This document shows positions 3,462 to 63,670 of a stretch of DNA of 64,000 nt, in pieces. Origin of the DNA: a virus (Duplodnaviria > Heunggongvirae > Uroviricota > Caudoviricetes); the IMG/VR virus record IMGVR_UViG_3300033062_002687. One strand, written 5' to 3'. A program made the translations under genes and the position numbers. Under the pieces are notes generated by a model. The model made no database searches, was not told the origin of the DNA, and saw only the letters and a list, made by a program, of their open reading frames with translations. The stretch's first letter is position 1, and each line of letters opens with the position of its first letter.

Positions 3462-4259
3462 TTTGTTTCCTCGTTATTAAGCAGAGGGAACTCTTCAGCC
3501 CGACCAAGAGTGAGAGTTTATTTTTTCCTCTGCTTTTTTTTATTGATTATTTTCTTTATATCCTTGTTATCCAGAGATTCATAATTGAGGTCCTGGCATG
3601 TGTTGAAACCTCTTCTGATTCCAAGAAGATAGCCATAGCAGAAAGACATGTCTTCTATTGATGGCTCGATGTTCTTAGCTCCTTTGAGATCTAGCTGAAG
3701 GCCGTTCTTGTATATCTTGAGGATTAGCTTCTGTGTCATCATTTACACCTGCATCTTAGAAATGGACTTATCAGTAATGCTAAAAATATTATTATTGACA
3801 TCATATACATGAATCTACGTTGCAATTTAAATTTATTTTTTAAATTATCATCCATCTCCTTAAACATCTGTTCATAATTTTGTTTTTTCATCGTTTTCCC
3901 TCTACGTAAAATTTTGGAACATTGATTTCTTCCTTTAGCTCTTCATCACTTTTTGTAAACATCTGCAGGATCTGGATAAGCTCCCTGAGCTTTTGCTGGT
4001 CATCGATCTGAAGGCGGTATGACACATACTGAAGATTAAGCGTGACATGCTTTTCCTTCATGTCATAATCAATGCTGGTTACATTCTTCAGCCTGTGTCC
4101 AAGTACCATTCAGTTATACCTCACTGTAAGCTTGACTCTTTTATTGCCTGTCTTGATTAGATGCACTGTTGTTATGGTGAAGCATTCTGATAAAGATTGT
4201 AGCCAAAGTAATGCTTCACTCATACTATAAAATGTTTTTTGTTTGTTCATGTTCTCACC

Positions 4260-4601
4260 TCATTTAACGATTACGAATACTCCTGCAAGGATCAGTGCGA
4301 TGCCTGCCCACTTGTAGGTTGAGAATGGCTCGTGAAGAAACCATGTCGCCATTATTGCTACCCATACATAGCTTAGCGCTATGATCGGATAAAGAATGGT
4401 TAGGTTGGCCTGTCTTAACATCAGGATAAAGATGATTGATGCAAGGCCATAACATGTCAATCCGGCAATCATTTTCAGACTTAAGAAAGTTAATGGCCTT
4501 GATGGATTGAATGTCTCGGTACCTAATTTGAAACAGATCTGGCCAATGGCACCAAGAATAGAGCAGCCTGCTACAACAAGGATTGGTATGAATTTATTCA
4601 T
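4260..4601 (-). CDS. SMR/EamA-like small multidrug-resistance-family transporter (4 TM, 113 aa)
   Basis: Four hydrophobic helices. YPIIALSYVWVAIMATWFLHEP...WAGIALILAGVF matches the SMR/DMT small-transporter signature. Confidence 0.65.
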   Translation of the reverse strand: MNKFIPILVVAGCSILGAIGQICFKLGTETFNPSRPLTFLSLKMIAGLTCYGLASIIFILMLRQANLTILYPIIALSYVWVAIMATWFLHEPFSTYKWAGIALILAGVFVIVK

Positions 4602-6639: not shown

Positions 6640-7074
6640 TCATTTATAACCATTTATGTTCACTAGGTATAATGTTGACTCTGATTGATTAATCTTCCTG
6701 TAGACATGCTCTACAATGACTCCATTGAGGAGACCTATTGCGCAGTGGGTGTATCCACCCTCTTTGTATGTAAACTGCATGTTGAGAGTTGAGCAGAGGG
6801 CGTTGGCTTCCTCATCAGTATATTTGATTGGGCCGCCTAATACTGCAAAATAGAAAACAATGACTGCGATGATAAATAAGAAAATTGCAAGATAGGTAAA
6901 GATATAGTGCTTGTGATGATGAATTTTTTTTATGTGATTCCCTGAAACTCGACCCATAATGCCCTCCCTAGTTAGCATATGGGAAAGCTTTAGGCTTTTT
7001 AAAGTTTGTGTTTTGGACAGTATATAAAGAATTTTCCTTTTGTTTTGCAACAAAAGGGGGGGTTCTGTTATCAT
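6640..7074 (-). CDS. membrane protein
   Basis: TM (YLAIFLFIIAVIVFYFAVLG) and basic His-rich N-terminus. Confidence 0.4.
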   Translation of the reverse strand: MITEPPLLLQNKRKILYILSKTQTLKSLKLSHMLTREGIMGRVSGNHIKKIHHHKHYIFTYLAIFLFIIAVIVFYFAVLGGPIKYTDEEANALCSTLNMQFTYKEGGYTHCAIGLLNGVIVEHVYRKINQSESTLYLVNINGYK

Positions 7075-7455
7075 ACCTCTATCCTAACGGTTGAATCAAA
7101 TGGCAGATGATTAAGAGGGTGTATGTAAATGATTCTGAATCAATTACTGCTCTTAATTATCTTTTGCCTTGATATCGATTTGTCGAATATAATTTATGTA
7201 AAATTGAATTACCTGAGTAATAGGCAATGCACCATTTCCTATGAGCATTCCGACATTGACTGAGAATATTATGAGATCTTTATAGAACCATGGTGAATTA
7301 TAATCCAATTGAATCAGATGATCGAACATGATGCTAACCTGATTATTAATTCTGTCGATGAAGAAGACAAGGACTCTTCAGAGCTGCATACGGTATTCTT
7401 CTGCAATGGAGAACGTGTTTCTACTGAAGAGTTTGCTCGTCCCTGTCTTTTGATG

Positions 7456-7626
7456 CTCATAGATAATCACTTATATGGTGTTTGGTTTTAAGATCAATCT
7501 CTTCTGCGACTTCAATATCATCATCTGTCTGCAGATGCATGTCTTCGCAGTCGACATTCATGCATACATAACCGTGACCTAATCTTTGCATTTGATGATC
7601 ACATATTGGACAATGCATAGTCCGCA
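7456..7626 (-). CDS. zinc-ribbon micro-protein (56 aa, below ORF-track cutoff)
   Basis: Manual translation: MRTMHCPICDHQMQRLGHGYVCMNVDCEDMHLQTDDDIEVAEEIDLKTKHHISDYL. Confidence 0.3.
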
Positions 7627-7960
7627 TGAGATGACCTTGTTTTTAAAGTTTTTCATTTTTCAATTTCAACCCATCCATCATCCACCTTATATTTTATTCC
7701 GAATCTTGTCATGCACCATTTGCATAACCAAATGGAAGATTTTGTCTTTAATCTCTTAAGCTTAAATGTCAATTCCAATTCTCCCAGTTGAGATATATGA
7801 CGATATCTGCCGCATGTATGACAGTTATAACAGGTCATTTTCTACCTCACAATTTTAATTATCTTCAGTTTCTTCATTTGGAATTTCCTCATCACAATCA
7901 CAGTATTCAAGATTATAATATACCTTCCTGCACTTAGGGCAATAGGTTAAAGCCCATTTA

Positions 7961-8344
7961 TCATTCAGAGCAATTGTCTTCATTTACATCAGCCTTTGTT
8001 TTTTTCCTGAATACGATTCCCTGCCAACCATACATCTCAAGGAATTCTGCTACATAAAGATTCTGAACACAAAGAGCTGGAATATCTCCTGCACGATTAA
8101 ATGTCGTAGCTATGAGATTCTCTCCGACATATATCTCATCTTCATATTTTCCTTTTTTTATATGTATCTTTCCTTCGACGAAATTTGCCAAGACACTGAT
8201 CTCCTTGTCTATGTTTTCGATCTCATGTTGCAGTTCTTCTTTCCTCTGAACCTTTTTCATCAGCTCTGTATGCGACCATTTATGTTTCATTGTTTCCTCC
8301 TCCGAATTAAATACATCAAACTCAAAACTCCCATAACATTCCAA
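7961..8344 (-). CDS. hypothetical protein (127 aa)
   Basis: ORF in the leftward block with internal coiled-coil-like segment. Confidence 0.4.
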   Translation of the reverse strand: MECYGSFEFDVFNSEEETMKHKWSHTELMKKVQRKEELQHEIENIDKEISVLANFVEGKIHIKKGKYEDEIYVGENLIATTFNRAGDIPALCVQNLYVAEFLEMYGWQGIVFRKKTKADVNEDNCSE

Positions 8345-8956
8345 AATATAATGCTTGTGATATTATTATAAAACCAATGGCCTCTGATCAAATCATTGAC
8401 ATCTGCTACAAAGATTGTTATGAGATACATAGTTGGCAGAATGATATCCTCGTTCATTCTAATTCGCCTCCGCAAAATTCACATACCATCTTCGGATTAT
8501 CTCCATAAGCATAACTAAGCTTTTGCTTTACCTTTCCTTCTACAGGAGCCTGACAGTTCTCGCAGAAGTACATCAGCTCACCACAATGCCATATTCGACT
8601 ATCCTGAAGCAATCAGGCGTCCAAAGTTTTGAACCATGGTTGTTTAAGCATGCCTGTTGTTTTCTTTTAAAGTGATGAGCCTCATGATAACTGGTTGAAC
8701 AGAATTTTTTAAGCCCAAAATCGCAAACATCCCACAAACCATTTGCAAATTTTGCTTCAACTATCCAGACTTTGTTTTTGTTTTTCATTAGCTTCATCCT
8801 CCTTGAATACCCTTGCAGATCTTATCATGCTTTTCCTCTGCTTCCTGAGAATCTTCGAAATAATGAAAGACTCCAAGAGGCTTTCCGCATTTAATACATA
8901 CGACTTCTATGCCTTCCTTGCAGTATAATGATTCGTCTTTTATCGCTTGTGTCATT

Positions 8957-9634
8957 TTATCCTCCAGACCTATTAAAAGGATCTTGGTATATATATGTTG
9001 TGTCATTAAACCATGAATCAGCTTGTTGTTTATTGTTCACACGTACTGTGTCATTCTCACTAATTACGATTTCTGTGCCATTTGAATATTTGATATAAAA
9101 AATATGATTTGTCCCATGAACAGGCTCTAACAAACTTCTGATCAAATCATCATCAGATTGCCAACTTCCTCCTGACCAATTATAACCATGATAAATTCCA
9201 TTTGTATCTCCTGAAATCATATACCATATAGAATTTTTTTGAAAAACTATTGGATCTGAAGACCATGGATCAAATTCCTTTTTAGTATAGTCACAACTTT
9301 TGAGTAATTGATTGAAGACATTAAAAAAACAATACGTTCCTGGCTTTCCTAATTCCTGCATACGATTGAAAAATGACATTTCATTGTAGCAATCATAATC
9401 AATACGAACGGGAGATTCAACAGTGAAATTAAAGTCACAATGAAGAGGAATAGTGATAATAGTTGCATTGATTGGATTAGATGTTAGAACAAAATATAAC
9501 CCTAGATTTATAAGAAGAAGAACAGCTAAAGCGCAGGTTATTATTACTGTCGCTTTTCCTGGAGGAGGAAGAGGTTTCTCTGGATTATAATTTTCTTCCT
9601 CTTCTGGTTCTGATTTATCAAATAGGTCCGGCAT
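8957..9634 (-). CDS. membrane-anchored protein with extracytoplasmic domain (225 aa)
   Basis: Pro/Glu-rich N-terminus, one TM (VIITCALAVLLLINLGLYFVL), large C-terminal domain. Confidence 0.45.
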   Translation of the reverse strand: MPDLFDKSEPEEEENYNPEKPLPPPGKATVIITCALAVLLLINLGLYFVLTSNPINATIITIPLHCDFNFTVESPVRIDYDCYNEMSFFNRMQELGKPGTYCFFNVFNQLLKSCDYTKKEFDPWSSDPIVFQKNSIWYMISGDTNGIYHGYNWSGGSWQSDDDLIRSLLEPVHGTNHIFYIKYSNGTEIVISENDTVRVNNKQQADSWFNDTTYIYQDPFNRSGG

Positions 9635-35831: not shown

Positions 35832-36479
35832 TCAGCCCTCGACTTCTTTATGACGAGCACCTGTATGCCAATCATACATGTCCTTTCTGAGCTTTCCCAT
35901 CTTGCCTGTTGAAGGCTGAACAAAAACAACACCTTCGACAAATCCATTTTTCATTATCTCGTCGCGCTTAGTGTTATCTGCATGCAGCATCAGATTGTAA
36001 AGAGGCATCAATGTCTTTAACCATTCTGACATAGATTCAAATGTCTTGGGATATTTCCCCCAGCTTTTGAATGCAAGATGCTTTCTACAGAATGTTTCGA
36101 AAGGAATCCATCTATGCTCCTTGAGATTATAAGGATTACCATTTATCTTTGGTCCGATAAGCTCACCAAAATGCTGACCATCTGGTAAGAATTCCATGTA
36201 ACCTTTTTCATATGAATTAAGAACACCTTCAATGATATACTTCTTGCCTTTGTTAAAGAAAGGAATCCTTTCTGTTCGATTCCAGACACTGGTAATAACT
36301 CCATCTTGGATTAAGATAGAAACATTAGTTCCATGAAGTTTTTCAGTGGCAAGCACGGTAGGATCATTGAATACCCAATCATATCCTTCGGTTATCTCAT
36401 TAGTTACAAGATATGCTCCATCAATAACCTTTCGCACAAATGGCGAATCCATTTTAGGCATGTCGTGAATTTCTATCAT
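35832..36479 (-). CDS. ATP-dependent RNA ligase, Rnl2-like minimal nucleotidyltransferase
   Basis: Motif I EKLHGTN (T4 Rnl2 KIHGTN); motif III HFGELIG; motif IV FVEGVVFVQ; motif V KMGKLRK. Confidence 0.6.
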   Translation of the reverse strand: MIEIHDMPKMDSPFVRKVIDGAYLVTNEITEGYDWVFNDPTVLATEKLHGTNVSILIQDGVITSVWNRTERIPFFNKGKKYIIEGVLNSYEKGYMEFLPDGQHFGELIGPKINGNPYNLKEHRWIPFETFCRKHLAFKSWGKYPKTFESMSEWLKTLMPLYNLMLHADNTKRDEIMKNGFVEGVVFVQPSTGKMGKLRKDMYDWHTGARHKEVEG

Positions 36480-37291
36480 TTGTCCGCCTCCACTTCTTTA
36501 GTTATACCCTTAAATGTTGGCATGCGCAATGCACCATTTGATGCCTTGCTGAGATATTGTATTGTCAATTCTGCAGAACCTGATTCATCTATCAGGCGCT
36601 TTACTTTACTGTGCATGCTGCCTGCGACAAGAACTCTGATTCCTTTCTTGTTTGTTACTGTAATGCCTGCAGAATTGGCTTCGTAGCCATCAAAGACGAT
36701 TGAGCTCTCCTTCCAACATTTGACTTTGAGCCAGTCGGTTGACCGCTTGCCTTCATGATAGATTGATCCAGGACGCTTGAGAACTATACCTTCCTTCTTG
36801 TTCTCTTTCATAATCCTAAAGAAGTTTTCTGGATCATTAAATGAACCGATGTATTTTATGTTGTTTCCGAAGAAAAACCTAAGCTCCATTATATTCGACT
36901 GACGCTCTTCATAGGTGCAGATACGAAGCTCATTGTTATCTACTTCTAAGCAATCAAAGATGCAGAATTTTACTGGAAGGCATTTTGCAAGGATGCTGAT
37001 TCTTCCCGGGTTATTGTTAAGATCCCGTGTGAGAACATCTGTAAAGACTTCGGACTTTGCAACGATCTCGCCGTCAAAGATGAAGTGCTTGTCGCACGGC
37101 GTGATGCATTCCTTTAGCTCAGGATACCTGTGCGTGATATCAACACCTCTCCTGTTTGTTATCTTTATTGCACCGTGGTTGTATTCCAGGATCGCTCGAA
37201 TACCGTCCTTCTTTTCCTGGCATTGCCATTCCTTGTACTTTGGCAAATCACTTTCCTTAATTTCCGAACACAACATTGGTTGGACGCTCAT
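36476..37291 (-). CDS. ATP-dependent DNA ligase (minimal, 271 aa)
   Basis: Motif I KKDGIRAI; motif III FIFDGEIV; motif IV EGIVLKRP; motif V DWLKVK. Size like Chlorella-virus/T7-type ligases. Confidence 0.8.
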   Translation of the reverse strand: MSVQPMLCSEIKESDLPKYKEWQCQEKKDGIRAILEYNHGAIKITNRRGVDITHRYPELKECITPCDKHFIFDGEIVAKSEVFTDVLTRDLNNNPGRISILAKCLPVKFCIFDCLEVDNNELRICTYEERQSNIMELRFFFGNNIKYIGSFNDPENFFRIMKENKKEGIVLKRPGSIYHEGKRSTDWLKVKCWKESSIVFDGYEANSAGITVTNKKGIRVLVAGSMHSKVKRLIDESGSAELTIQYLSKASNGALRMPTFKGITKEVEADK

Positions 37292-44404: not shown

Positions 44405-45205
44405 TCACACCGTTATTGTTGCCTGAAGCTGTGCAAGAAGGTCTTGGTTGTCCTTCTGCTTAACTGCATGCTCGATTACTATCTGCTCTCCATTCAGCTT
44501 CTTCTGGATAAGCTCTGAGAATCTTTGCTCCCTCTCGCTTACCAAGTCTTCGACCTTGAAATCTGCCAAGGACATCTTGTCGATTATCTGCTTGAACAAT
44601 CCAAGCTCATCTTTGGAAAGCTCTGCTGATTCAACAGGCACATTCTCAATATCCCGCATCTCATCAGCAAACCTGAGCTGATACATCAGAAGCCTGTTCT
44701 TATATGGCATGACTACCGCATACCTCTCGTTGCTCCTGATTGCTGACTTGCAAAGGAGAACCTTTCCGAACTTGCTTAATGACTCCACGAGCAAGTTGTA
44801 GTGCTTGAATACCGCCTTATTCTCGGGGCACAGGAAATACGGCTTGTGATACATCAGGCAATCAACATCTACACTATCTAAAAAGCCAACTCCCTTTATA
44901 CAATCAGGAGCTTCTCCCTGCATGTATTCCATGTCCTGCTCGGTAAAGGTAACGACTTGGTCTTTGGTCACCTTATATCCTTTCCTGCATTGTGTTATTG
45001 GAACTTCCCTTCCACAATCCGTGCATACTGACTTGTTGCCAACTGCTCCATTGCAATCAGGGCAGAATCTTGAAAACCCTGAACTCTCATTTTCACTTAT
45101 GGCAGCATATACCTTTGTCGGACAATTAAACAATCCGATTTGAATGCCTACTGTCTTTAGGCTTCTTGCTCCTGCCATGCTCACATCTAATTTTGGTTTT
45201 GCCAT
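44405..45205 (-). CDS. ku: Ku-like DNA end-binding protein
   Basis: GIQIGLFNCPTKVYAAI vs bacterial Ku SIAFGLVNVPVKVYSAT. FSRFCPDCNG...SVCTDCGREV vs Mtb Ku FHQVH...RVCEACGEVV. Length 266 aa. Confidence 0.6.
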   Translation of the reverse strand: MAKPKLDVSMAGARSLKTVGIQIGLFNCPTKVYAAISENESSGFSRFCPDCNGAVGNKSVCTDCGREVPITQCRKGYKVTKDQVVTFTEQDMEYMQGEAPDCIKGVGFLDSVDVDCLMYHKPYFLCPENKAVFKHYNLLVESLSKFGKVLLCKSAIRSNERYAVVMPYKNRLLMYQLRFADEMRDIENVPVESAELSKDELGLFKQIIDKMSLADFKVEDLVSEREQRFSELIQKKLNGEQIVIEHAVKQKDNQDLLAQLQATITV

Positions 45206-56773: not shown

Positions 56774-59634
56774 GTTTGTAATTTGAATTCAATTTACCTT
56801 TTCTCATATCACTCATTTTTTTCTTAACTTTATTAGCCCTTTCATTTCCCATAAGCTCTTCATAAGACTTACCGACTTTATCATTATTGTTATGACATCT
56901 AATACATAACCATTCGAAATCATTAATATCTCTAAAATATTTACCAGACTTGTTTGCTAATTCAAGATATTTTTTCTTTCCGCATCTATCACAAAATTTA
57001 ACTTTTGGTTTGTTTTTTCTAATCCAAGCATGTAATCCTACATATCCAACTTCATTACCTTTCCATAAAGGATGTAATTCATTAGTCCATTTGTTGAACT
57101 GAATTACAAGTTCGTCTTAATGCCTTTGCTATTTCAACAAGTCCTTTTATTTTATAATTATCCTTCAAAAATTTTATTTCATTTGTTGTCCAAGTTTTTT
57201 CTATTCTCATTTCAGACCTTTTAGTTTACATTCAGGACATACTTCTTCTTTTATTTCAGCATACATCTCTCCAAAACAATCAGGCATATTTGCTGATTTT
57301 AAAATGTTAAGGATATGCTTGAACCTATCACTTCTTTCACATCTCGGAGAGAATAACCTTCCTTCCTTAAAATAAATTAGAGTCCCATCAAGTTTGAGAC
57401 TGATGTGCATCCCCGAGAAATCCTTTTTCTGTGCCTGTTCAGGTTTCAGGTCAATTATGTTTAATGTTCCCATTATTCCACTTCTTCGTAATTCCTCATT
57501 TCCAAAATAGGTATCTGAGTTACAATTTCGCCTGTAACCTTATGCCTAAATCTCTTGCTTACAAATTCAGTTTCCATTTTTTCCTCAATATTCCAATTCA
57601 CGAATATTGGATTCATCTGCCCACTTTTCTGCTCTGGATTTTATGCCAAACCCTGACAGAATATCCTCTATCTTGTCGATAATTTCCATTATTCATCATC
57701 TTCCAATGTAGCTTGTTTGCCACATTTAGAGCAGGTGATAATATTTTCACCTAATTTATCAAAAAAATCTCCAAAGGCAATTTTTTTAATCTCTTCACCA
57801 TTCTCATCAATTTCCATATCAACCTGTATGCCTCTTGTTGTATGAAAATTTGCCTTACACTTGCAGTTTGCTTTTATCATTTTAATTCATCTTATCTGTT
57901 TTACTACAAACACATTTATTTAATAGCTCGGTAAAATCTGCTATAAACATCTCTTTATCTGTTATCGTGTTAGGATGAAATAATGCTGTGCATATATTCA
58001 GCAATATCATTCCTCTCAAATGTTCACTCATTAAATTTTTCATTATGTATCCTCCTAATTATTTGTCTTGTAGGCGTGAACCAACGCCTCGTTATTCGGA
58101 TTTCTCCTAACTTATGGTGGGAATGAGGGGATTTTAACCCCAAATCTTTTCGATTGGTAGCAATTTCAAATCGTCATTCGAAATCACTTGATGCGTCCAT
58201 CACAAGACCTCCCGATTGCTCTCACAGGTTGAGCTACATCCCCATAAGTCTCTGACAAATAATTATACTCATTCATCTCAAGAATATGAAAGGAAGTGGG
58301 ATAAGGTTTGCCATTCCAACTACCCTGATTTTGAGCTTTTCATTTCCCGATTGGTTATTCGGACTATCTAAATGCTATCAGAGATTTCCTCTCCCAACAT
58401 TTAGCATTCTCAAAATCTATGCTAACTACCTGCATTTGTATTACTTCCTCTTGGAATTCCGTAGTTGAGCATTATTTTTTTCTAAATGTAACTGATTTTC
58501 CACAGCATTCACAAATGCCCTGAATTACACAGCCATTTTGAAGAGCAAGTAATTGCTCTTCATCAAACGTGATTGTCAAATTACCAACCCCTATCGTAGA
58601 AATTATCCTCTTCGTCATCATCTATTCTATCATTCAGAATATCCTGAACAGCTTTCCATTCCTCACTTAAATAGTTTTTATCCTCCCTTAAAAGCTCTTC
58701 TGCTTCTTCTGATAGCTCTTCCTCTATCATTTCCTGCTCTTCTTCATACATTTTTGCTCACCTCAAAACTTCTACCTTTCCAGCCCTTATGAAAATCCTT
58801 TTAACAGGAATTCCCTGATACAGAATTTTCAGTCTTTTCGTCGGAATTAATCCGTTATCAAAAAGGCTTAATGGCTGGTTTGTTGCAACTTTCCATCTTA
58901 CAACGCTGACTCTCTTTTCGTCAAGCTCTGCAAAATGCTTTTGCTGTTCTAACTGCTTCTGCTTCCAATCAGCAATATGCTGTTTAAGCTGTTGCCCTTC
59001 CATTTTTGTCCACCTCAATTATCTGTTTCCTGACGCATAGCCAATATGCTTTGCATTTTCGATGTCAAGAATTTTTAGCTTTTTACCTGCTCTGCAAACT
59101 TTCACAATTATTCCTGTCTCTGATTTTAAATAATCCTTTTTGAAGAATTTAAAACCGATACAGAAAAGTGTCTTTATGTCGATTATATCGCCTTTTGTCA
59201 GAAACAAATTTGTTCACCTTAATTCATCATTACCCAAATAAACCCATTGGCAATAGCCACTACAAAAGATAACACTATTTTCTCCAATGGTATCTATTAC
59301 AGGTCTTGGTCTTGAATGCCAATCAATCACCTTATCACAGAAAGCACAGGTTACTTCTTTTTTTGCTAAAGATTCTCTGTTGTCTAAAGCAACATCTTTA
59401 ACAAAAGCATCTGTTTCGGAATTTTTACCCATATCCCAAATTATAGGATAGGATTTTGGTTCTTCAACCATATTATTCACCTCGCAGATTTTTTTTATGC
59501 TCAAAAAATTCAATCAAGCCGAATTCAGTTTTAGGGGGATAAGAATAAGATAAACTCTGCCTGATTTTTGAATTCGAGCATAAAAATAAATTCTTTAGTT
59601 TAATATATGGTTAGAAATACCTCTCCTTATGTGC

Positions 59635-59961
59635 TTACAATGTTTCCTTCTGGAAATCAATGACAGGATGTTCGGAAATAACATTCTGTCCCTTTTTGTC
59701 CACTCTGGATTTCCTTATTGCTATCATTGGAAATCCCTTTGGAGATAATTGCTCACCAATTATCTCAATGCTCTTCACATTGGCATATTTGCCTTTGGAA
59801 TAAATCCTCTGGACAAATGCCTGTTGCTTTGGTGTTCCTCCTGTTACAGGAACAATGTTCTTGCCTTTTCCCTTTGTTGCTGATAAAGTAGCAACAGATG
59901 TCGCAAGTTGAGATACGCAATTCACCAATGCGTTAAATTTTTCTTCAGTTATGTTTGTCAT
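59635..59961 (-). CDS. hypothetical protein (108 aa)
   Basis: First gene downstream of the noncoding island. Confidence 0.4.
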   Translation of the reverse strand: MTNITEEKFNALVNCVSQLATSVATLSATKGKGKNIVPVTGGTPKQQAFVQRIYSKGKYANVKSIEIIGEQLSPKGFPMIAIRKSRVDKKGQNVISEHPVIDFQKETL

Positions 59962-60009
59962 TTTTCGATACCTCGCTTTAATTAGTAAGAGGTATTTCTA
60001 CAATCCATT

Positions 60010-60049
60010 TAAACTAAAGAAAAGAGAGGGCAGGAAAATCCTGCCCTCT
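60010..60049 (-). terminator. Rho-independent terminator (10-bp GC-rich stem 60025-60034/60040-60049, then UCUUUUCUUU on the minus strand)
   Basis: Perfect hairpin gagagggcagg-aaaat-cctgccctct; minus-strand 3' flank TCTTTTCTTTAGTTT. Confidence 0.6.
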
Positions 60050-60600
60050 GCTCACAAGTCGTCGTTAGGTTTTATCAAACTTTGGTTTCAGATTAAATCT
60101 TACTTCTCAAAGTAGAGCTGTTTCTTGAAAAGTTATGCTTTTCAATATTCCGAAAAAAGCTAAACCTTAATCAGTAGCTCTGATAAGAACGATTTTACTC
60201 GGTCTTACGACTTTTAGGGAGTCACCAACCCTACCCTTAATGGTTTTGAACATTAAGGAGAGATTTTAAAGTAATCTCTTTCGGAAACTCCAAACTAAAC
60301 CAAACAACACCAAGAAACCATATTTAAAATATGGTTAGTAGTGAGCTTAACCACTACCTATATCCATAAGGATATTTATTAATCCTATTTAAAAGAGTTC
60401 TCCAGCTCTTTTAAACTCTATCTCCCTTTCATTCGTAATTTTAGAGTATCCTCTGGAGAGATTCAACCCTGTTTCGGAATTACTTGTAGAGAAAGGTCTA
60501 TCTATGATAACCCTTTCGACTCGGTTGGTTGTTTTAGCTTTTCATAGTTTCCACTATGTTACGACTTCCCATTATAAAATGGGTTTTCGTGGTGTGTGAT
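60050..60600 (-). ncRNA. candidate structured ncRNA locus (possible Y-RNA-like partner of the adjacent Ro60 gene)
   Basis: No ORF. Multiple perfect hairpins (60320-60340, 60343-60367, 60390-60415, 60564-60579). Long-range complementarity AAGTCGT (60056-60062) / ACGACTT (60209-60215). Terminated by the hairpin at 60010-60049. A TATAAT-like element lies on the minus strand at about 60567-60572. Confidence 0.3.
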
Positions 60601-61060
60601 GATACTACACCACACACCCACCACCGCCGAGGGTGAGGAAAACACCCCACCACCGCCGAGGCAATATTCAGAAAACACTTGAAGTATATAAATTTTGTGG
60701 CGGTTGAATATAGTATATTGGAATATATAGGTTTAAGTTTTTTCGTGAGCTAACCTATGTTCTCTAAAATATATTTTCTAAAATATATTTTGTTTTTATT
60801 ATTTCGTGGTTATTGGTGGTTATATGGTAGTAAACACACACCACCGCCACCACACACCGCCACACACCGCCACACCACCGAGTAACCACCGAGTATAAAC
60901 ACCCACACCACCATATAATAGGGTGGTATATATAGTTACGCCACCACTACACCATAACACCCCACCACCACCGAGTAGATAATAAAAAACACCACCACCG
61001 AGTAAACACACACACCGCCGAGTAAACACCACACCATAGAAAACCACTACTGAATAGTGA
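60590..61060. repeat. strand-asymmetric CA-rich (minus strand GT-rich) iteron tract: ccaccaccgccgagg x2, caccaccgagta(a) x5 or more, plus interspersed caccgcc units
   Basis: Direct repeats visible by eye. The minus-strand ORF 60820-61047 (GGV/GGW-rich) is a translation artefact of the repeat. Confidence 0.6.
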
Positions 61061-61090
61061 CAAATACACTTGCATATACGGTCACAGTAA

Positions 61091-61182
61091 CATTAACATA
61101 TAGAGAAGTCTATACATATAGAGCATTAGCGAACAGGTCTATATGTTAATGTATATCTATATCTAAATCTATATGTTAATAT
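61091..61182. promoter_or_regulatory. AT-rich 13-mer (tctatatgttaat) in two direct copies (61138-61150, 61168-61180) and one inverted copy (cattaacatatag, 61091-61103)
   Basis: Exact 13-mer matches; located immediately 3' of the Ro60 gene. Confidence 0.4.
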
Positions 61183-61201
61183 ACATTATTGTATATTTGA
61201 T

Positions 61202-62716
61202 TTAGACCACAATTTTATTGATCTCTGTCAGAACTGAACCGCCTTTTTCTAGCGCTGCAAGCATATCGAAGATCTTGTCACTCCAACCTGCTATCAGATA
61301 GACATCTTTCTCGACCATGTCGATTGGTGTAGTACCGTATCCGGCCATGTCAAAGAGATAGAGCTTTGCATTTGGATTTTTAGCCTTGTATTTATGCCAG
61401 AGATTTGCGAACTTGTCGAAGTTTTCATCATCCATATCATCAAGTGTTATAGTCGTGGAATCCCATAGCTGACAATCTGTAAAGAACATTACCTTGTCTG
61501 CTGAGATACCAGCCTTTAGCATATGTTCAAGAACTTTCCAGCCATTTGTGCTATAACCAACTTCACCTTCACAATCCCTTAATTTAACTACGTTGTCCAG
61601 GATACTTGATTTGCTAAGCTGTTTAATCTTCCAATCATCACCAAAGATACCGGTGATAACTTTCTTGCATCTATGCTGCAGCAACATGCCTAACATCAGG
61701 CCGATATCGTAATACTGTACGGCGCTATGCTTTGAAATAGATGCCTGCATGCTACCGCTAACGTCACAAGCAATTAGCACAGTAGTCTTATCATTATAAC
61801 CCTGGATATTAGCTGCTGAGACTTTTACAGCACTTTCAAGTGCATCCAAGATCATGCTTGTTGAAGCATTAGTGTTATTTGAAAGCTCGAGATATGCTGA
61901 CAAGAACCTGAATGGAAGCTGCTTGCTTTTTAAAACCTCTTTTTCATTGCTGAGATAACTAACAACCTTGCTAAGATTATTTACATCAGCATCAAGAAGG
62001 TTACGCAAATTTCTTAATGTTGCCATGTAAAAAAGTTTATTCGAATCAATAAGATGTTCCCAAACAGCTTTCTTTTTTGCCGCATCCTTGCCGCATGCTG
62101 AGATCATGACTTCCCATGTATCTGGAGTTGCCAATGTATCTGTTGCGATCCTTTTGAATAATTCTTCTCTTTTTTTATCCTCTGGCTTAGGATGAGCAAG
62201 GAATAGAGCATCACGTAGCTTCACTGCACCTGCCTGATTGTATTTAGCAAAATTATATTCGTCGAATTTGAAGAATGCTTTTGCAAGACCTAGTTTGATC
62301 TGATGAGAAAGCTTGCTTAATTTCTTTGTGTCAATTCTTGCATTAGCCACCTGGTAAAACGCAAGCAGCTCTGTGATTTCATCAGCCCTCTGAATAACCC
62401 TTTCAGTAAGCTTGCTTACAAGCTGATCACCCTTATGGATCTTTGCAAGTTCAACTGTTAGAACAAGAGGAATAGATCTTAAGTGCATCTGTTCCCTGGC
62501 ATAGACAGCTAGTTTAGCAACAAATTCTGGCTTGACTTTTGCTACAAGATCTTTGATTCTCTTTAATGTAGCAGTCTCTTTCTCATAGAATTTGTCCTGC
62601 AGACCTGCAGTGCATACGAGAGAATACAGCTCAACTTCAGGAGCTAATGTATAGGCAATCGCGCCTTCATAATTCAATGTTTTTCTTTGGTTTGTCTGTT
62701 TTTTATTAAATTTCAT
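61202..62716 (-). CDS. rsr: Ro60-like ribonucleoprotein (TROVE domain + C-terminal vWA with MIDAS)
   Basis: 504 aa. MATLRNLRNLL (Ro60 MALRNLGKM); KQLPFRFLSAYLEL (Ro60 RIHPFHILIALETY); LIACDVSGSM MIDAS (Ro60 LLAVDVSASM). Confidence 0.8.
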   Translation of the reverse strand: MKFNKKQTNQRKTLNYEGAIAYTLAPEVELYSLVCTAGLQDKFYEKETATLKRIKDLVAKVKPEFVAKLAVYAREQMHLRSIPLVLTVELAKIHKGDQLVSKLTERVIQRADEITELLAFYQVANARIDTKKLSKLSHQIKLGLAKAFFKFDEYNFAKYNQAGAVKLRDALFLAHPKPEDKKREELFKRIATDTLATPDTWEVMISACGKDAAKKKAVWEHLIDSNKLFYMATLRNLRNLLDADVNNLSKVVSYLSNEKEVLKSKQLPFRFLSAYLELSNNTNASTSMILDALESAVKVSAANIQGYNDKTTVLIACDVSGSMQASISKHSAVQYYDIGLMLGMLLQHRCKKVITGIFGDDWKIKQLSKSSILDNVVKLRDCEGEVGYSTNGWKVLEHMLKAGISADKVMFFTDCQLWDSTTITLDDMDDENFDKFANLWHKYKAKNPNAKLYLFDMAGYGTTPIDMVEKDVYLIAGWSDKIFDMLAALEKGGSVLTEINKIVV

Positions 62717-63013
62717 TTAAATTCACCTCGGGAATTATACAAAAGATTTTTTATAATTATTTGCTGAAGTATCTCTTGTTTACGCCACGCTGTGCGATTA
62801 TGATGAGGGAAAAGCCGACAAAGGTGGTTTTTTCATTGTAGTTGAAGTAACCCTTGTCTACGCCACTCTATTGCTGGGAAGTATAAGAGATTTATATATT
62901 TTTTGGTTATTGAGTATATGCGAGGAGCGGGTGCTGCCCCCACGAATTCTGATGTTTGCATTTTTACAAAATCTGGCAATCAGACAGTTTAACTGTTAGC
63001 TTATCCTCGCTGA

Positions 63014-63085
63014 TGCGCCGAGAGGTAATTGAAACCTCATACCGTGCTCGGAAGGCACGTTCCCTGGCCGTTAGGATATCGGCGC
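63014..63085 (-). tRNA. tRNA-Gly (UCC)
   Basis: Manual fold: acceptor GCGCCGA/TCGGCGC (7 bp); D arm TCCT-AACGGCC-AGGG; anticodon arm CGTGC-CTTCCGA-GCACG (U33, anticodon UCC); T arm GAGGT-TTCAATT-ACCTC; discriminator A; no CCA encoded. Begins 1 nt after the HNH stop. Confidence 0.7.
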
Positions 63086-63670
63086 CTAATCGTCTCCTTC
63101 CTCATCATCATACAGATGACTCATGTCGATATCAAGGAATCTCATGAGGATCCTTAGCATCTCCATACTGATCATTATGCCATGCTGATCCCTGTTCATT
63201 CTCCTTAAATCTCTTAGCTGCTTTTTCATCTGCTTCCAGTTTATCTTAACATCCTGATGGATCTTATATGTAGCGCCCCAGAAAGTAATACTGATCTTAC
63301 CTTTATGGAAAGCTGCATGGCAGCGATGGCAAATTGTGATGCAATTCTTCAAGCTGTCTTTACCGTCATTTTTCTGAAATTTAATATGGTGGAGTGTAAT
63401 ACGAGATCCGGATTTATCACAGCCTTCATTCTGGCAAGTAAAGTTATCACGCTGAAATACAACACACTTGACAAAATAACGCTTGTATATCTCATCACGC
63501 ATTGACTTGTCCAGCTTTTTGACTTCATCAGGTTTCCATTCATTGAAGAACTCCTCCTGAGTCTTTACTATTTTGAATTTCTCGTACATATTTATACACA
63601 CTCCAAAAGTACAGGAGCTGAGATTTGCACTCAGTTTCCCGGAGTCACAGTCCGATGTTTTAATCTTCAT
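63086..63670 (-). CDS. HNH endonuclease (homing-endonuclease-like)
   Basis: CQNEGCDKSGSRITLHHIKFQKNDGKDSLKNCITICHRCHAAFH: classic HNH with Zn-binding Cys pairs; flanked by tRNA genes on both sides. Confidence 0.6.
   Translation of the reverse strand: MKIKTSDCDSGKLSANLSSCTFGVCINMYEKFKIVKTQEEFFNEWKPDEVKKLDKSMRDEIYKRYFVKCVVFQRDNFTCQNEGCDKSGSRITLHHIKFQKNDGKDSLKNCITICHRCHAAFHKGKISITFWGATYKIHQDVKINWKQMKKQLRDLRRMNRDQHGIMISMEMLRILMRFLDIDMSHLYDDEEGDD

What the first reader, a model, noticed from the sequence alone, without database searches (positions are those of the whole stretch)
59962..62716. Ro60 (TROVE-vWA) gene followed by a 1.2-kb ORF-free island rich in hairpins: candidate Y-RNA-like ncRNA locus
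The Ro60 call rests on paired sequence motifs. From established knowledge, bacterial and phage Rsr genes are almost always accompanied by one or more Y RNAs encoded next to them. Directly downstream of the Ro60 stop lies 1.24 kb with no credible ORF: four or more perfect hairpins, a long-range AAGTCGT/ACGACTT helix, and a strong intrinsic terminator (60010-60049) oriented for the same strand as the rsr gene. This is the expected architecture for Y-RNA gene(s), but I could not recognise the canonical Ro-binding bulged helix by eye, so the identity is inferred.
Basis: partly seen in the sequence, partly recalled or inferred. Interest (0 to 1): 0.75.

Follow-up and report, generated by a model that had tools for sequence, protein, structure and literature searches.

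The report
Phage Ro60 gene; Y RNAs lie upstream
A large phage carries a genuine Ro60 gene, but its Y-RNA-like partners are two small hairpins just upstream of the gene, while the flagged 1.2-kb downstream island is a different, conserved non-coding element (sequence repeats plus a roughly 0.6-kb multi-hairpin RNA) of unknown function.

Summary
Positions 61202-62716(-) encode a full-length Ro60 (TROVE plus vWA). The 1.24 kb downstream is non-coding, hairpin-rich (fold z = -7.6) and ends in a strong same-strand terminator (60049-60025).

The Y-RNA reading of the island does not hold. Rfam finds nothing there. A covariance model built from Ro60-adjacent RNAs of other phages finds nothing there either, even with filters off. 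That model gave 80 hits, all on the Ro60 strand, in 38 of 82 Ro60 loci. In this phage it hits only upstream of rsr: 62798-62873(-) and 62721-62795(-), plus a third copy outside the window inside the tRNA array. These are YrlB-type long hairpins carrying the clade's GGCGUAG / CGYUUGU internal loop.

The island is conserved at 74-79% identity in three related phage lineages. Its substitutions show no codon periodicity. It has two modules:
- TACTCGGYGGTG direct repeats in AT-rich DNA. One 50-nt block is 98% conserved.
- A multi-hairpin domain (60620-60050) maintained by compensatory changes.

My best reading is a structured non-coding RNA, or a long 3' UTR, at the end of a tRNA / Y RNA / rsr transcription unit. 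A replication origin is the main rival for the repeat module. The Y RNAs are a new member of a known kind. The island belongs to no known family.

The parts
61202..62716 (-). rsr / Ro60 gene (504 aa; TROVE ring plus vWA domain with MIDAS DxSxS)
   Evidence: Pfam TROVE E = 3.3e-29 and weak vWA_Ro60. 4657 homologues, the best non-self ones about 60% identical. Full-length match to PDB 9KOP/9L5Y, the phage phiLo Ro60.
62798..62873 (-). Y-a: Y-RNA-like long hairpin. Layout: outer stem, internal loop 5' GUGGCGUAG / 3' CGGCUUUU, inner stem ACAAGGG/CCUUUGU, then UUACUUC.
   Evidence: Model R1, built without any window sequence: 41.2 bits, E = 9e-7. One mismatch to GTAGNNNNNAGNTACTTC. Essentially identical in relative L209, which scores 45.2 bits. 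MFE fold shows the two stems.
62721..62795 (-). Y-b: second Y-RNA-like hairpin (GUGGCGUAA, inner stem ACAAGAG/CUUUUGU, AUACUUC). Its 3' outer-stem strand contains the rsr Shine-Dalgarno GAGGUG, and it ends 5 nt before the ATG.
   Evidence: R1: 33.6 bits, E = 4.5e-5. The stem is conserved in L209 while the apical loop gains a 26-nt hairpin there. Fold. Sequence context.
62874..62920 (-). Block upstream of Y-a that is nearly identical in relative L209, while the tRNA region further upstream differs. Candidate promoter or processing signal; function not tested.
   Evidence: Alignment with L209. The 22-mer tested from this block (62881-62902) occurs only once in the window.
63014..63085 (-). tRNA-Gly(UCC), the last gene of a tRNA array of at least 15 genes that runs upstream on the same strand, beyond the window
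   Evidence: ARAGORN and Rfam.
61088..61196 (.). AT-rich (23% G+C) segment with imperfect inverted and direct repeats (TATATGTTAATGTATAT type). Poorly conserved in relatives.
   Evidence: Repeats, composition, about 50-70% identity to L209/L210.
60840..61050 (-). GT-rich repeat block (79% G+T on the minus strand). Holds five same-orientation copies of (T)TACTCGG(T/C)GGTG plus GGTG/GGCGGTG runs. Positions 61031-60982 are 98% identical in relatives.
   Evidence: (pattern: 5 matches against 0.31 expected, all inside the island).
60680..60839 (-). A-rich, 26% G+C segment. Contains two tandem perfect 12-bp palindromes AAAATATATTTT (60766-60791) and the conserved ACCACCAATAACCAC. Positions 60832-60783 are 94% conserved.
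60619..60660 (-). Two further repeat copies (CCTCGGCGGTGGTGG) that can pair into a hairpin at the 5' edge of the structured module
60050..60618 (-). Multi-hairpin non-coding module: about 14 local stems, plus a predicted long-range helix (about 60541-60516 with about 60314-60292) that encloses five of them
   Evidence: z = -7.6. RNAalifold: 199 pairs, 28 with compensatory changes, -175 kcal/mol on this strand against -131 on the other. In the 3' half with three lineages, 97.7% of cells are paired and 18 of 77 pairs carry double changes, against 0-3 in slid controls. No Rfam family matches.
60015..60049 (-). Intrinsic terminator (AGAGGGCAGGA-UUU-UCCUGCCCUCU, then CUUUUCUUU) closing the unit
   Evidence: The stem changes CAGGA/UCCUG to CGGAG/CUCCG in L212/L213.

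Best explanation
The locus is a phage RNA-handling module read on the minus strand. Its order is: tRNA array, two tandem Y-RNA-like hairpins (62873-62721), rsr/Ro60 (62716-61202), a 1.24-kb conserved non-coding island, then a strong intrinsic terminator (60049-60025).

The Ro60 partners are the upstream hairpins, plus a third copy inside the tRNA array outside the window. They are YrlB/Yrn2-type long hairpins. A conserved internal loop (5' GGCGUAG/GGCGUAA, 3' CGYUUGU-like), flanked by two covarying stems and a UUACUUC tract, corresponds to the GNCGAA Ro-binding site of YrlA. By inference from Deinococcus, Salmonella and Thermus phage phiLo, they bind the outer face of the Ro60 ring and tether or gate it, for example towards host PNPase.

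The island is not a Y-RNA locus. It has two parts:
(a) A sequence-constrained repeat module: TACTCGGYGGTG copies between AT-rich segments and two 12-bp palindromes. This pattern fits protein-binding DNA sites, either transcription control or an origin.
(b) A multi-hairpin domain of about 0.6 kb whose stems are kept by compensatory substitutions and which folds better on the gene-sense strand. Most likely it is a structured non-coding RNA, or a long structured 3' UTR, co-transcribed with rsr and released or stabilised at the terminator.

Shown: Ro60 identity; the Y-like family and its strict linkage to Ro60; absence of that family from the island; conservation, non-coding nature and covariation of the island; the terminator.
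Inferred: transcription, Ro60 binding, and any function of the island RNA.
For: Ro60.

Y-like family:
- The motif GTAG-N5-AG-N-TACTTC lies next to Ro60 in about 30 phage loci.
- R1 was built from 16 such RNAs from other phages.
- R1 gave 80 hits at E <= 0.01 in 0.92 Mb, all on the Ro60 strand, in 38 loci. 55 are upstream (median gap 200 nt) and 25 downstream (median gap 385 nt).
- 89% of cells are paired against 54% in shuffles, and all 14 pairs show double changes.
- R1 hits overlap the Rfam YrlA matches at L029:7434-7545 and L015:4622-4719. The Rfam YrlA consensus 5' GGCGAAUGC / 3' UUGUCGCC parallels the clade motif.

In this phage, only three R1 hits occur, all upstream of rsr on its strand. 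They are conserved in L209.

Island negative results.

Island conservation and non-coding nature.

Island structure.

Terminator.

Against: - No expression data exist. Transcription of Y-a, Y-b and the island is inferred from strand, context and the terminator.
- Y-a and Y-b are not recognised by any Rfam family. They lack a tRNA-like domain, and their 3' loops (CGGCUUUU, AUAAUU) depart from the CGYUUGU consensus.
- Covariation in the island rests on only three lineages at 74-79% identity.
- Local hairpins could in principle act at the DNA level. The better fold on the minus strand partly reflects its G+T richness.
- The near-invariance of the repeat block points to a sequence-specific, probably DNA-level, function that the RNA reading does not explain.
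- No homologue of the island was found next to any of 86 other Ro60 loci, so a functional link to Ro60 is not shown.
Confidence: 0.7

Rival explanations
1. One reading: the island encodes one or more divergent Y RNAs that bind Ro60 through a helix not recognisable by existing models.
For: - The island lies directly downstream of rsr on the same strand and within 4 kb, as Y RNAs do in 25 of 80 model hits elsewhere, for example Flavobacterium L005.
- It is hairpin-rich and ends at a terminator.
- One GUCGAAAG (a GNCGAANG match) lies at 60520-60513(-).
Against: - No Rfam Y_RNA, YrlA or tRNA-like match at E <= 10.
- R1 and R2 with filters off give at most 8.6 and 14.5 bits, and those are generic hairpins.
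- The GNCGAANG pattern occurs at chance frequency in the window: 17 observed against 12.6 expected. In L209 that site reads ACCGAAAGGG.
- The proposed end-to-end helix is not conserved.
- The phage already has three good Y-like genes elsewhere.
Confidence: 0.06
2. The 5' half of the island (61196-60619) is a replication origin. The TACTCGGYGGTG iterons bind an initiator next to AT-rich unwinding segments. Possibly a G-rich transcript forms a priming R-loop. The downstream hairpins are accessory or unrelated.
For: - Five to seven same-orientation repeats lie 11, 22, 20 and 27 bp apart and are unique to this spot in 64 kb.
- They are flanked by segments of 23-26% G+C, and the repeat block is 79% G+T on one strand.
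- The repeats are far more conserved (98%) than their surroundings (about 75%).
- Repeat number varies between L209 and L210.
Against: - GC skew does not change sign across the island.
- All genes on both sides run the same way.
- No initiator, helicase or primase gene was identified nearby.
- No similar repeat set was found in other phages: the 14-mer gave only scattered hits, one per contig in all but one case (L095, two).
- This reading does not explain the covarying hairpins or the terminator.
- It is compatible with the best explanation for module (a) rather than exclusive of it.
Confidence: 0.25
3. The hairpins act at the DNA level (extruded hairpin promoters as in phage N4, recombination sites or protein-binding palindromes) rather than in an RNA.
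For: - Most stems are perfect local palindromes that fold on either strand.
- Compensatory changes preserve a DNA hairpin as well as an RNA one.
Against: - The minus strand folds 44 kcal/mol better and forms 49 more pairs.
- Several invariant G-U pairs would be A-C mismatches on the other strand.
- The stems all differ in sequence, so there is no common protein site.
- A predicted long-range helix with compensatory changes encloses five hairpins.
- The series ends in a canonical terminator.
Confidence: 0.08
4. The island hides a protein-coding gene, for example the 75-aa ORF called by JGI at 60820-61047 or a gene read with a reassigned stop codon.
For: Gene callers placed ORFs of 75, 120 and 87 aa on the GT-rich repeats in the window contig, L209 and L210.
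Against: - The products are low-complexity G/V/C/W strings with no Pfam match.
- Substitutions show no codon periodicity.
- Indels of 1 and 10 nt break the frame between relatives.
Confidence: 0.02

Closest known systems
YrlB / Yrn2-type bacterial Y RNAs (long-hairpin Y RNAs of S. Typhimurium, M. smegmatis and D. radiodurans; Chen et al. 2014, PMC4201824)
   Same: Y-a and Y-b lie next to rsr on its strand. Their 5' and 3' ends pair into a long stem interrupted by a conserved internal loop whose 5' strand (GGCGUAG/GGCGUAA) parallels GNCGAA. Their apical loops are small and variable. They occur in more than one copy and upstream of rsr, as in M. smegmatis and D. radiodurans.
   Different: The motif is GNCGUAG rather than GNCGAA(N)G. 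An invariant UUACUUC tract follows the inner stem. Y-b abuts and partly contains the rsr ribosome-binding site. Binding to Ro60 has not been shown.
YrlA (Rfam RF02553)
   Same: Relatives of the same stem family in other phage loci (L029, L015, L012, L016, L046) carry the T-arm, acceptor hairpin and D-arm, and match RF02553 at about 44 bits.
   Different: The window's two hairpins have no tRNA-like domain and give no RF02553 match. Even the related YrlA-type RNAs score below the Rfam gathering threshold of 69 bits.
Yrl1/Yrl2 of Thermus phage phiLo (PMC12135203)
   Same: A phage-encoded Ro60 with two Y-RNA-like genes placed just upstream of it. The window Ro60 aligns over its full length with the phiLo protein.
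   Different: Only the proteins were compared here.
Iteron-type replication origins (lambda ori, P1 oriR, P4 ori/crr)
   Same: Several same-orientation 12-20-bp repeats at roughly helical spacings lie beside AT-rich DNA, with a second small repeat cluster about 220 bp away.
   Different: No adjacent initiator gene, no skew change, no sequence similarity, and a covarying hairpin domain follows.
Large ornate phage-associated RNAs (ROOL, GOLLD)
   Same: About 0.6 kb, many stems, found in a phage near a tRNA array.
   Different: No Rfam match at E <= 10. Only three close lineages are known. No evidence of expression or higher-order assembly.

Membership tests
Bacterial/phage Y RNA - the island 59962-61201 | Encoded within about 4 kb of the Ro60 gene on the same strand (PMC4201824) | tested here: met
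   The island starts 1 nt after the rsr stop codon. The terminator orientation indicates the minus strand. Location alone does not discriminate.
Bacterial/phage Y RNA - the island 59962-61201 | Stem formed by the 5' and 3' ends that carries the conserved Ro-binding loop (GNCGAA-type; in this clade GGCGUAG ... CGYUUGU, plus UUACUUC) | tested here: not met
   Rfam gives no Y_RNA or YrlA match at E <= 10. R1 scores at most 8.6 bits and R2 at most 14.5 bits with filters off. The best pattern match has 3 mismatches, which is chance level. The AAGTCGT/ACGACTT helix is not conserved.
Bacterial/phage Y RNA - the island 59962-61201 | tRNA-like domain (T-arm and D-arm), as in YrlA | tested here: not met
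   No tRNA or YrlA model match in the island at E <= 10. ARAGORN finds nothing there.
Bacterial/phage Y RNA (YrlB/Yrn2 type) - hairpins 62721-62873 | Adjacent to Ro60 on the same strand | tested here: met
   Gaps of 5 and 82 nt to the rsr ATG, minus strand.
Bacterial/phage Y RNA (YrlB/Yrn2 type) - hairpins 62721-62873 | Long stem from the paired ends with the conserved Ro-binding internal loop | tested here: met
   R1, trained only on other phages, scores 41.2 and 33.6 bits. The family shows covariation in both stems. The loop parallels the RF02553 consensus. It is a variant: GNCGUAG/GNCGUAA instead of GNCGAA.
Bacterial/phage Y RNA (YrlB/Yrn2 type) - hairpins 62721-62873 | Physical binding to Ro60, and expression as a discrete small RNA | not testable with these tools
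   Needs RIP, EMSA, Northern blot or RNA-seq.
YrlA (RF02553) - hairpins 62721-62873 | T-arm, acceptor hairpin and D-arm between the two strands of the Ro-binding stem | tested here: not met
   The apical regions are only 20-25 nt of A/U-rich loop. No RF02553 match.
Iteron-type replication origin - 61196-60619 | Multiple direct repeats in one orientation next to AT-rich DNA | tested here: met
Iteron-type replication origin - 61196-60619 | Strand-composition switch, or change of gene orientation, at the site | tested here: not met
   GC skew keeps its sign from 40 kb to 72.7 kb, and all genes are co-oriented. This is a weak test for phages.
Iteron-type replication origin - 61196-60619 | Cognate initiator protein and initiation of DNA synthesis at the site | not testable with these tools
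   No initiator was recognised among the nearby small ORFs. Needs experiments.
ROOL / GOLLD and other Rfam large RNAs - 60620-60050 | Match to the family covariance model | tested here: not met
   No match at E <= 10 in the window or at E <= 1 in relatives L209/L210.
Intrinsic (Rho-independent) terminator - 60049-60015 | G+C-rich hairpin followed by a U tract on the transcribed strand | tested here: met
   11-bp stem with 7 G-C pairs, followed by CUUUUCUUU. Compensatory changes occur in L212/L213.

The most novel reading that the evidence does not exclude
The covariation-supported multi-hairpin domain of about 0.6 kb (60620-60050), with its highly conserved GT-rich repeat leader, is a new class of large structured phage RNA. 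It would be made as the 3' part of a tRNA / Y RNA / rsr transcript and would work with Ro60, for instance as a client, decoy or scaffold for the Ro60-Y RNA-exonuclease machine. It would not be an inert 3' UTR or an origin.
Probability: 0.15. Interest if true: 0.75.

Novelty: new member of a known kind. Interest (0 to 1): 0.45.

Why it matters
Correct placement of the Y RNAs matters for anyone annotating or expressing phage Ro60 systems, because the partners here would be missed by Rfam.

The stem model built here recovers Ro60-linked RNAs in 38 of 82 loci, all on the Ro60 strand. It defines a clade-specific Ro-binding loop (GGCGUAG / CGYUUGU plus UUACUUC) that can be tested directly by gel shift or crystallography.

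The island is a separate, well-delimited target. It is a conserved non-coding element with unusually strong structure and an almost invariant repeat block, sitting between a phage RNA-quality-control gene and a terminator. If it is an RNA, it adds to the small set of large structured phage RNAs found near tRNA arrays. If it is an origin, it marks the replication start of an uncharacterised phage with a genome of about 140 kb.

Tried and rejected
- Close relatives of the Ro60 protein in viral contigs using the single protein: none found.
- DNA similarity of 57800-63100 to 50,697 phage records: none.
- blastn of the island against 86 other Ro60 loci: nothing below E = 0.06, and no island hit better than E = 0.18.
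- Short motifs TCCGAAW, GNCGAAG and GNCGAANG: present at chance frequency in the window, so not usable as evidence.
- Scan of viral contigs with the iteron 14-mer: only scattered hits, one per contig in all but one case (L095, two); uninformative.
- Scans with a conserved island 21-mer: metagenome contigs gave one true relative (L213) and one chance hit (L214); viral contigs gave none.
- Sigma-70-type promoter scan: fewer sites than in shuffles. The site inside hairpin 60583-60568 is not conserved in L209.
- Search for a recurring phage promoter using the tandem palindrome and a 22-mer from the conserved block upstream of Y-a: both are unique in the window.
- G-quadruplex-type runs: not distinctive for the island.
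- Shared gene content with other Ro60 phages: only Ro60 itself.
- The window's 126-nt tRNA-like RNA as a permuted YrlA: rotation alignment gives no significant gain, so it is left unassigned.
Full report
**What is there**

The window equals positions 1-64000 of a 140-kb JGI metagenome contig. In this region all genes run on the minus strand.

ORF 61202-62716(-) is a bona fide Ro60:
- Pfam TROVE at E = 3.3e-29, with a sub-threshold vWA_Ro60 match.
- 55-62% full-length identity to Bacteroidota and phage TROVE proteins.
- Invariant MIDAS residues in the family alignment.
- Alignment over residues 12-493 with the solved Thermus phage phiLo Ro60.

Upstream on the same strand lies an array of at least 15 tRNA genes that continues beyond the window.

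Downstream, 59962-61201 has no credible ORF. It contains about 15 local stems of 6-11 bp and ends in an 11-bp G+C-rich hairpin with a U tract, oriented for the rsr strand. The stretch 60020-60680(-) folds at -220.8 kcal/mol against -158.7 +/- 8.2 for dinucleotide shuffles, z = -7.6.

**Test of the Y-RNA reading**

Rfam 15 gives no Y_RNA, YrlA or tRNA-like match in the island, even at E <= 10.

Rfam might miss divergent Y RNAs, so I looked at what accompanies related Ro60 genes. I collected 80 viral loci and several assembly loci encoding relatives. About 30 of them carry, on the Ro60 strand, one to four copies of a striking motif: GG-UG-N-CGUAG-N5-AG-[U/A]UACUUC. Downstream of the motif come the complement of the N5-AG segment, then CG[Y]UUGU, then a closing stem.

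Some copies are short hairpins. Others enclose a T-arm, an acceptor hairpin and a D-arm, and coincide with sub-threshold Rfam YrlA matches at L029:7434-7545 and L015:4622-4719. The RF02553 consensus (5' cggCGAAUGC, 3' UUGUCGCCg) parallels the clade motif. The conserved loop is therefore the local version of the GNCGAA Ro-binding site described by Chen et al. 2014 (PMC4201824).

A covariance model (R1) built from 16 short examples from other phages has two helices with clear covariation. Searched over 82 Ro60 loci plus the window (0.92 Mb, both strands), it gave:
- 80 hits at E <= 0.01, every one on the Ro60 strand, in 38 loci.
- 55 hits upstream of Ro60 (median gap 200 nt) and 25 downstream (median gap 385 nt).
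- 89% of cells paired against 54% in shuffles, with double changes at all 14 pairs. That alignment was fitted to the model, which favours pairing.

**Where the model hits in this phage**

In the window plus the 8.7 kb beyond it, R1 finds exactly three significant matches. All are on the rsr strand and upstream of rsr:
- 62798-62873(-), 41.2 bits (Y-a).
- 62721-62795(-), 33.6 bits (Y-b).
- Contig positions 64134-64205, 54.8 bits, between tRNA-Val and tRNA-Pro and outside the window.

The pattern GTAGNNNNNAGNTACTTC occurs with one mismatch or fewer only at these places.

With all filters off, nothing in 59962-61201 exceeds 8.6 bits with R1. With a second model built from all 80 hits (R2), nothing exceeds 14.5 bits, and that match is a bare hairpin.

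Y-a and Y-b fold as expected. They are essentially invariant in the related contig L209, apart from a 26-nt hairpin inserted into the apical loop of Y-b. This is the behaviour expected of a Y RNA with a constant Ro-binding stem and a variable apical module.

Y RNAs upstream of rsr are known from D. radiodurans and M. smegmatis, where both are processed from a single precursor (PMC4201824), and from phage phiLo (PMC12135203).

**What the island is**

Homologues of the 108-aa protein encoded just after the island (59635-59961) led to five short contigs from related phages (L209-L213). L209 shows the same order: HNH gene, tRNAs, Y-a, Y-b, Ro60, island, 108-aa gene. It has an extra LAGLIDADG-like ORF inserted right after the Ro60 stop codon.

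The island aligns throughout at 74-79% identity. Mismatches show no codon periodicity, and 1-nt and 10-nt indels break any frame. The 75-120-aa ORFs that gene callers placed on the GT-rich repeats are therefore spurious.

Two modules can be told apart.

Module (a), 61196-60619:
- An AT-rich, weakly conserved segment (61196-61088).
- A block that is 79% G+T on the minus strand, with five same-orientation copies of (T)TACTCGG(T/C)GGTG. Positions 61031-60982 are 98% identical between lineages.
- An A-rich segment with two tandem perfect palindromes AAAATATATTTT.
- Two more repeat copies at 60660-60619.
Evidence: The repeat is unique to this spot in the 64 kb. Sequence is constrained here, rather than pairing, which points to protein-binding DNA sites.

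Module (b), 60620-60050:
- A series of different hairpins whose stems change by compensatory substitutions between lineages. Examples: CCCAUU/AAUGGG becomes CCACGU/ACGUGG, AUAUCC/GGAUAU becomes AAUGCC/GGCAUU, and CCUUAAUG/CAUUAAGG becomes CUCUAAUG/CAUUAGAG or UCCUAAAG/CUUUAGGA.
- RNAalifold on three sequences predicts 199 pairs, 28 with double changes, including a long-range helix enclosing five hairpins.
- In the 3' half, where three lineages are available, 97.7% of cells pair and 18 of 77 pairs carry double changes, against 0-3 when partners are slid.
- The gene-sense strand folds 44 kcal/mol better than its complement, and several invariant G-U pairs exist only on that strand.
- The terminator stem itself covaries.
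- No Rfam family matches the island in the window or in its relatives.
- No similar DNA lies near the other 86 Ro60 loci.

**Mechanism, with confidence**

I take the unit to be one minus-strand transcription unit, or a set of co-oriented units: tRNAs, Y RNAs, rsr and the island, closed by the first strong terminator at 60049-60025.

The claim that Y-a and Y-b are the Ro60 partners and that the island is not a Y-RNA locus rests on independent models and on strict genomic linkage. I hold it at about 0.85.

That module (b) is a structured RNA (an independent ncRNA or a long 3' UTR) is the best-supported reading, at about 0.55. It lacks expression data and rests on three lineages.

Module (a) could be a control region for that RNA or an iteron-type origin, at about 0.25. 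GC skew does not change sign and no initiator gene is nearby, but these are weak tests in phages. The function of the island RNA is unknown, and a link to Ro60 is only positional.

**Comparison with known families, and novelty**

Y-a and Y-b behave like YrlB/Yrn2-type long-hairpin Y RNAs. They are new members of that kind, with a variant loop (GNCGUAG/GNCGUAA) and an extra UUACUUC tract. They are not YrlA, because they have no tRNA-like domain.

The island belongs to no described family. It resembles iteron origins in its first half. It resembles large phage RNAs found near tRNA arrays (ROOL, GOLLD) only in size and setting.

Overall the finding is a correct Ro60 call with a mislocated Y-RNA inference, plus a real but unexplained conserved non-coding element.

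Noticed in passing
window 58118-58243 (-): A 126-nt tRNA-like gene. It has a 7-bp acceptor stem, D-arm and T-arm (T-loop UUAAAAU) and an encoded CCA. A 65-nt three-hairpin insert replaces the anticodon arm, and leader and trailer pair (ACUUAU/AUAAGU). The Rfam tRNA model scores 35.5 bits; ARAGORN is silent. It shares UCUUGU...UUUCGAAU with the permuted YrlAs but lacks GNCGUAG, and rotation alignment to YrlA is not significant. Identity unresolved.
   Followed up: partly
L009:6637-6763, L003:7652-7781, L047:7266-7401 (other Ro60 phage loci): tRNA-model hits of 127-136 nt next to Ro60 that are circular permutations of YrlA. The ends form an open acceptor stem (two of them encode CCA). The Ro-binding stem, closed by a tetraloop, sits where the anticodon arm would be. 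They align to canonical YrlAs only after rotation at about nt 55-65 (scores 97-144, against 59-82 unrotated and <= 82 shuffled). No mention of such a topology was found in PMC4201824.
   Followed up: partly
L001:8512-8583 (contig 64134-64205, just outside the window): A third and best-scoring Y-like hairpin (R1 54.8 bits, canonical CGUUUGUUCCC 3' strand), wedged between tRNA-Val and tRNA-Pro in the tRNA array. In the bacterial locus L006, R1 hits are likewise interleaved with tRNA genes (3470-3576, 3843-3996, 4070-4157). This suggests release by the tRNA-processing enzymes.
   Followed up: partly
window 62721-62745 (-): The 3' strand of the Y-b outer stem (CCCGAGGUG) contains the rsr Shine-Dalgarno sequence and ends 5 nt before the ATG, as also in L209. 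In at least seven loci a Y-like hairpin ends within 30 nt of the Ro60 start, but there the SD lies outside the stem. Possible translational autoregulation by Ro60; untested.
   Followed up: partly
L001:7956-8070, 4395-4501 and 8346-8440 (contig about 64647-64761, 68216-68322 and 64277-64371): Oversized or odd tRNA-model hits within the array: 115 nt and 107 nt with extra hairpins, and one ARAGORN tRNA with an undetermined two-base anticodon. Possibly further tRNA mimics or interrupted tRNAs.
   Followed up: no
window 58244-58471 (-): ORF-free spacer upstream of the tRNA-like gene with a significantly stable fold (z = -4.6 for 58325-58424). UCCGAAUAAC occurs on both sides of the tRNA-like gene (58363 and 58100).
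   Followed up: no
L209:2842-3393: A 183-aa ORF with a weak LAGLIDADG_3 match (E = 3e-4) is inserted exactly between the Ro60 stop codon and the island in one relative. It is absent from the window. A free-standing homing endonuclease is likely.
   Followed up: partly
L005 (Flavobacterium sp. CP033068): 6737-7079 and 7293-9183: In a cellular genome, rsr is followed by three R1 hits in a 775-nt gap that Rfam leaves empty. Next come a T4 Rnl1-type RNA ligase and a kinase/phosphatase (PNKP-like) gene, with a WYL regulator upstream. This looks like an rsr / Y RNA / RNA-repair operon of a type different from rtcBA.
   Followed up: no
window 44405-45205 (-) and 36476-37291 (-): The phage encodes a Ku homologue (Pfam Ku, E = 2.9e-34) and an ATP-dependent DNA ligase (E = 1.7e-28). 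Together they form a two-component end-joining set.
   Followed up: no
window 63086-63670 (-): An HNH endonuclease gene sits between tRNA genes of the array and overlaps tRNA-His by about 60 nt in the ORF listing. It is conserved at 92% in L209.
   Followed up: no
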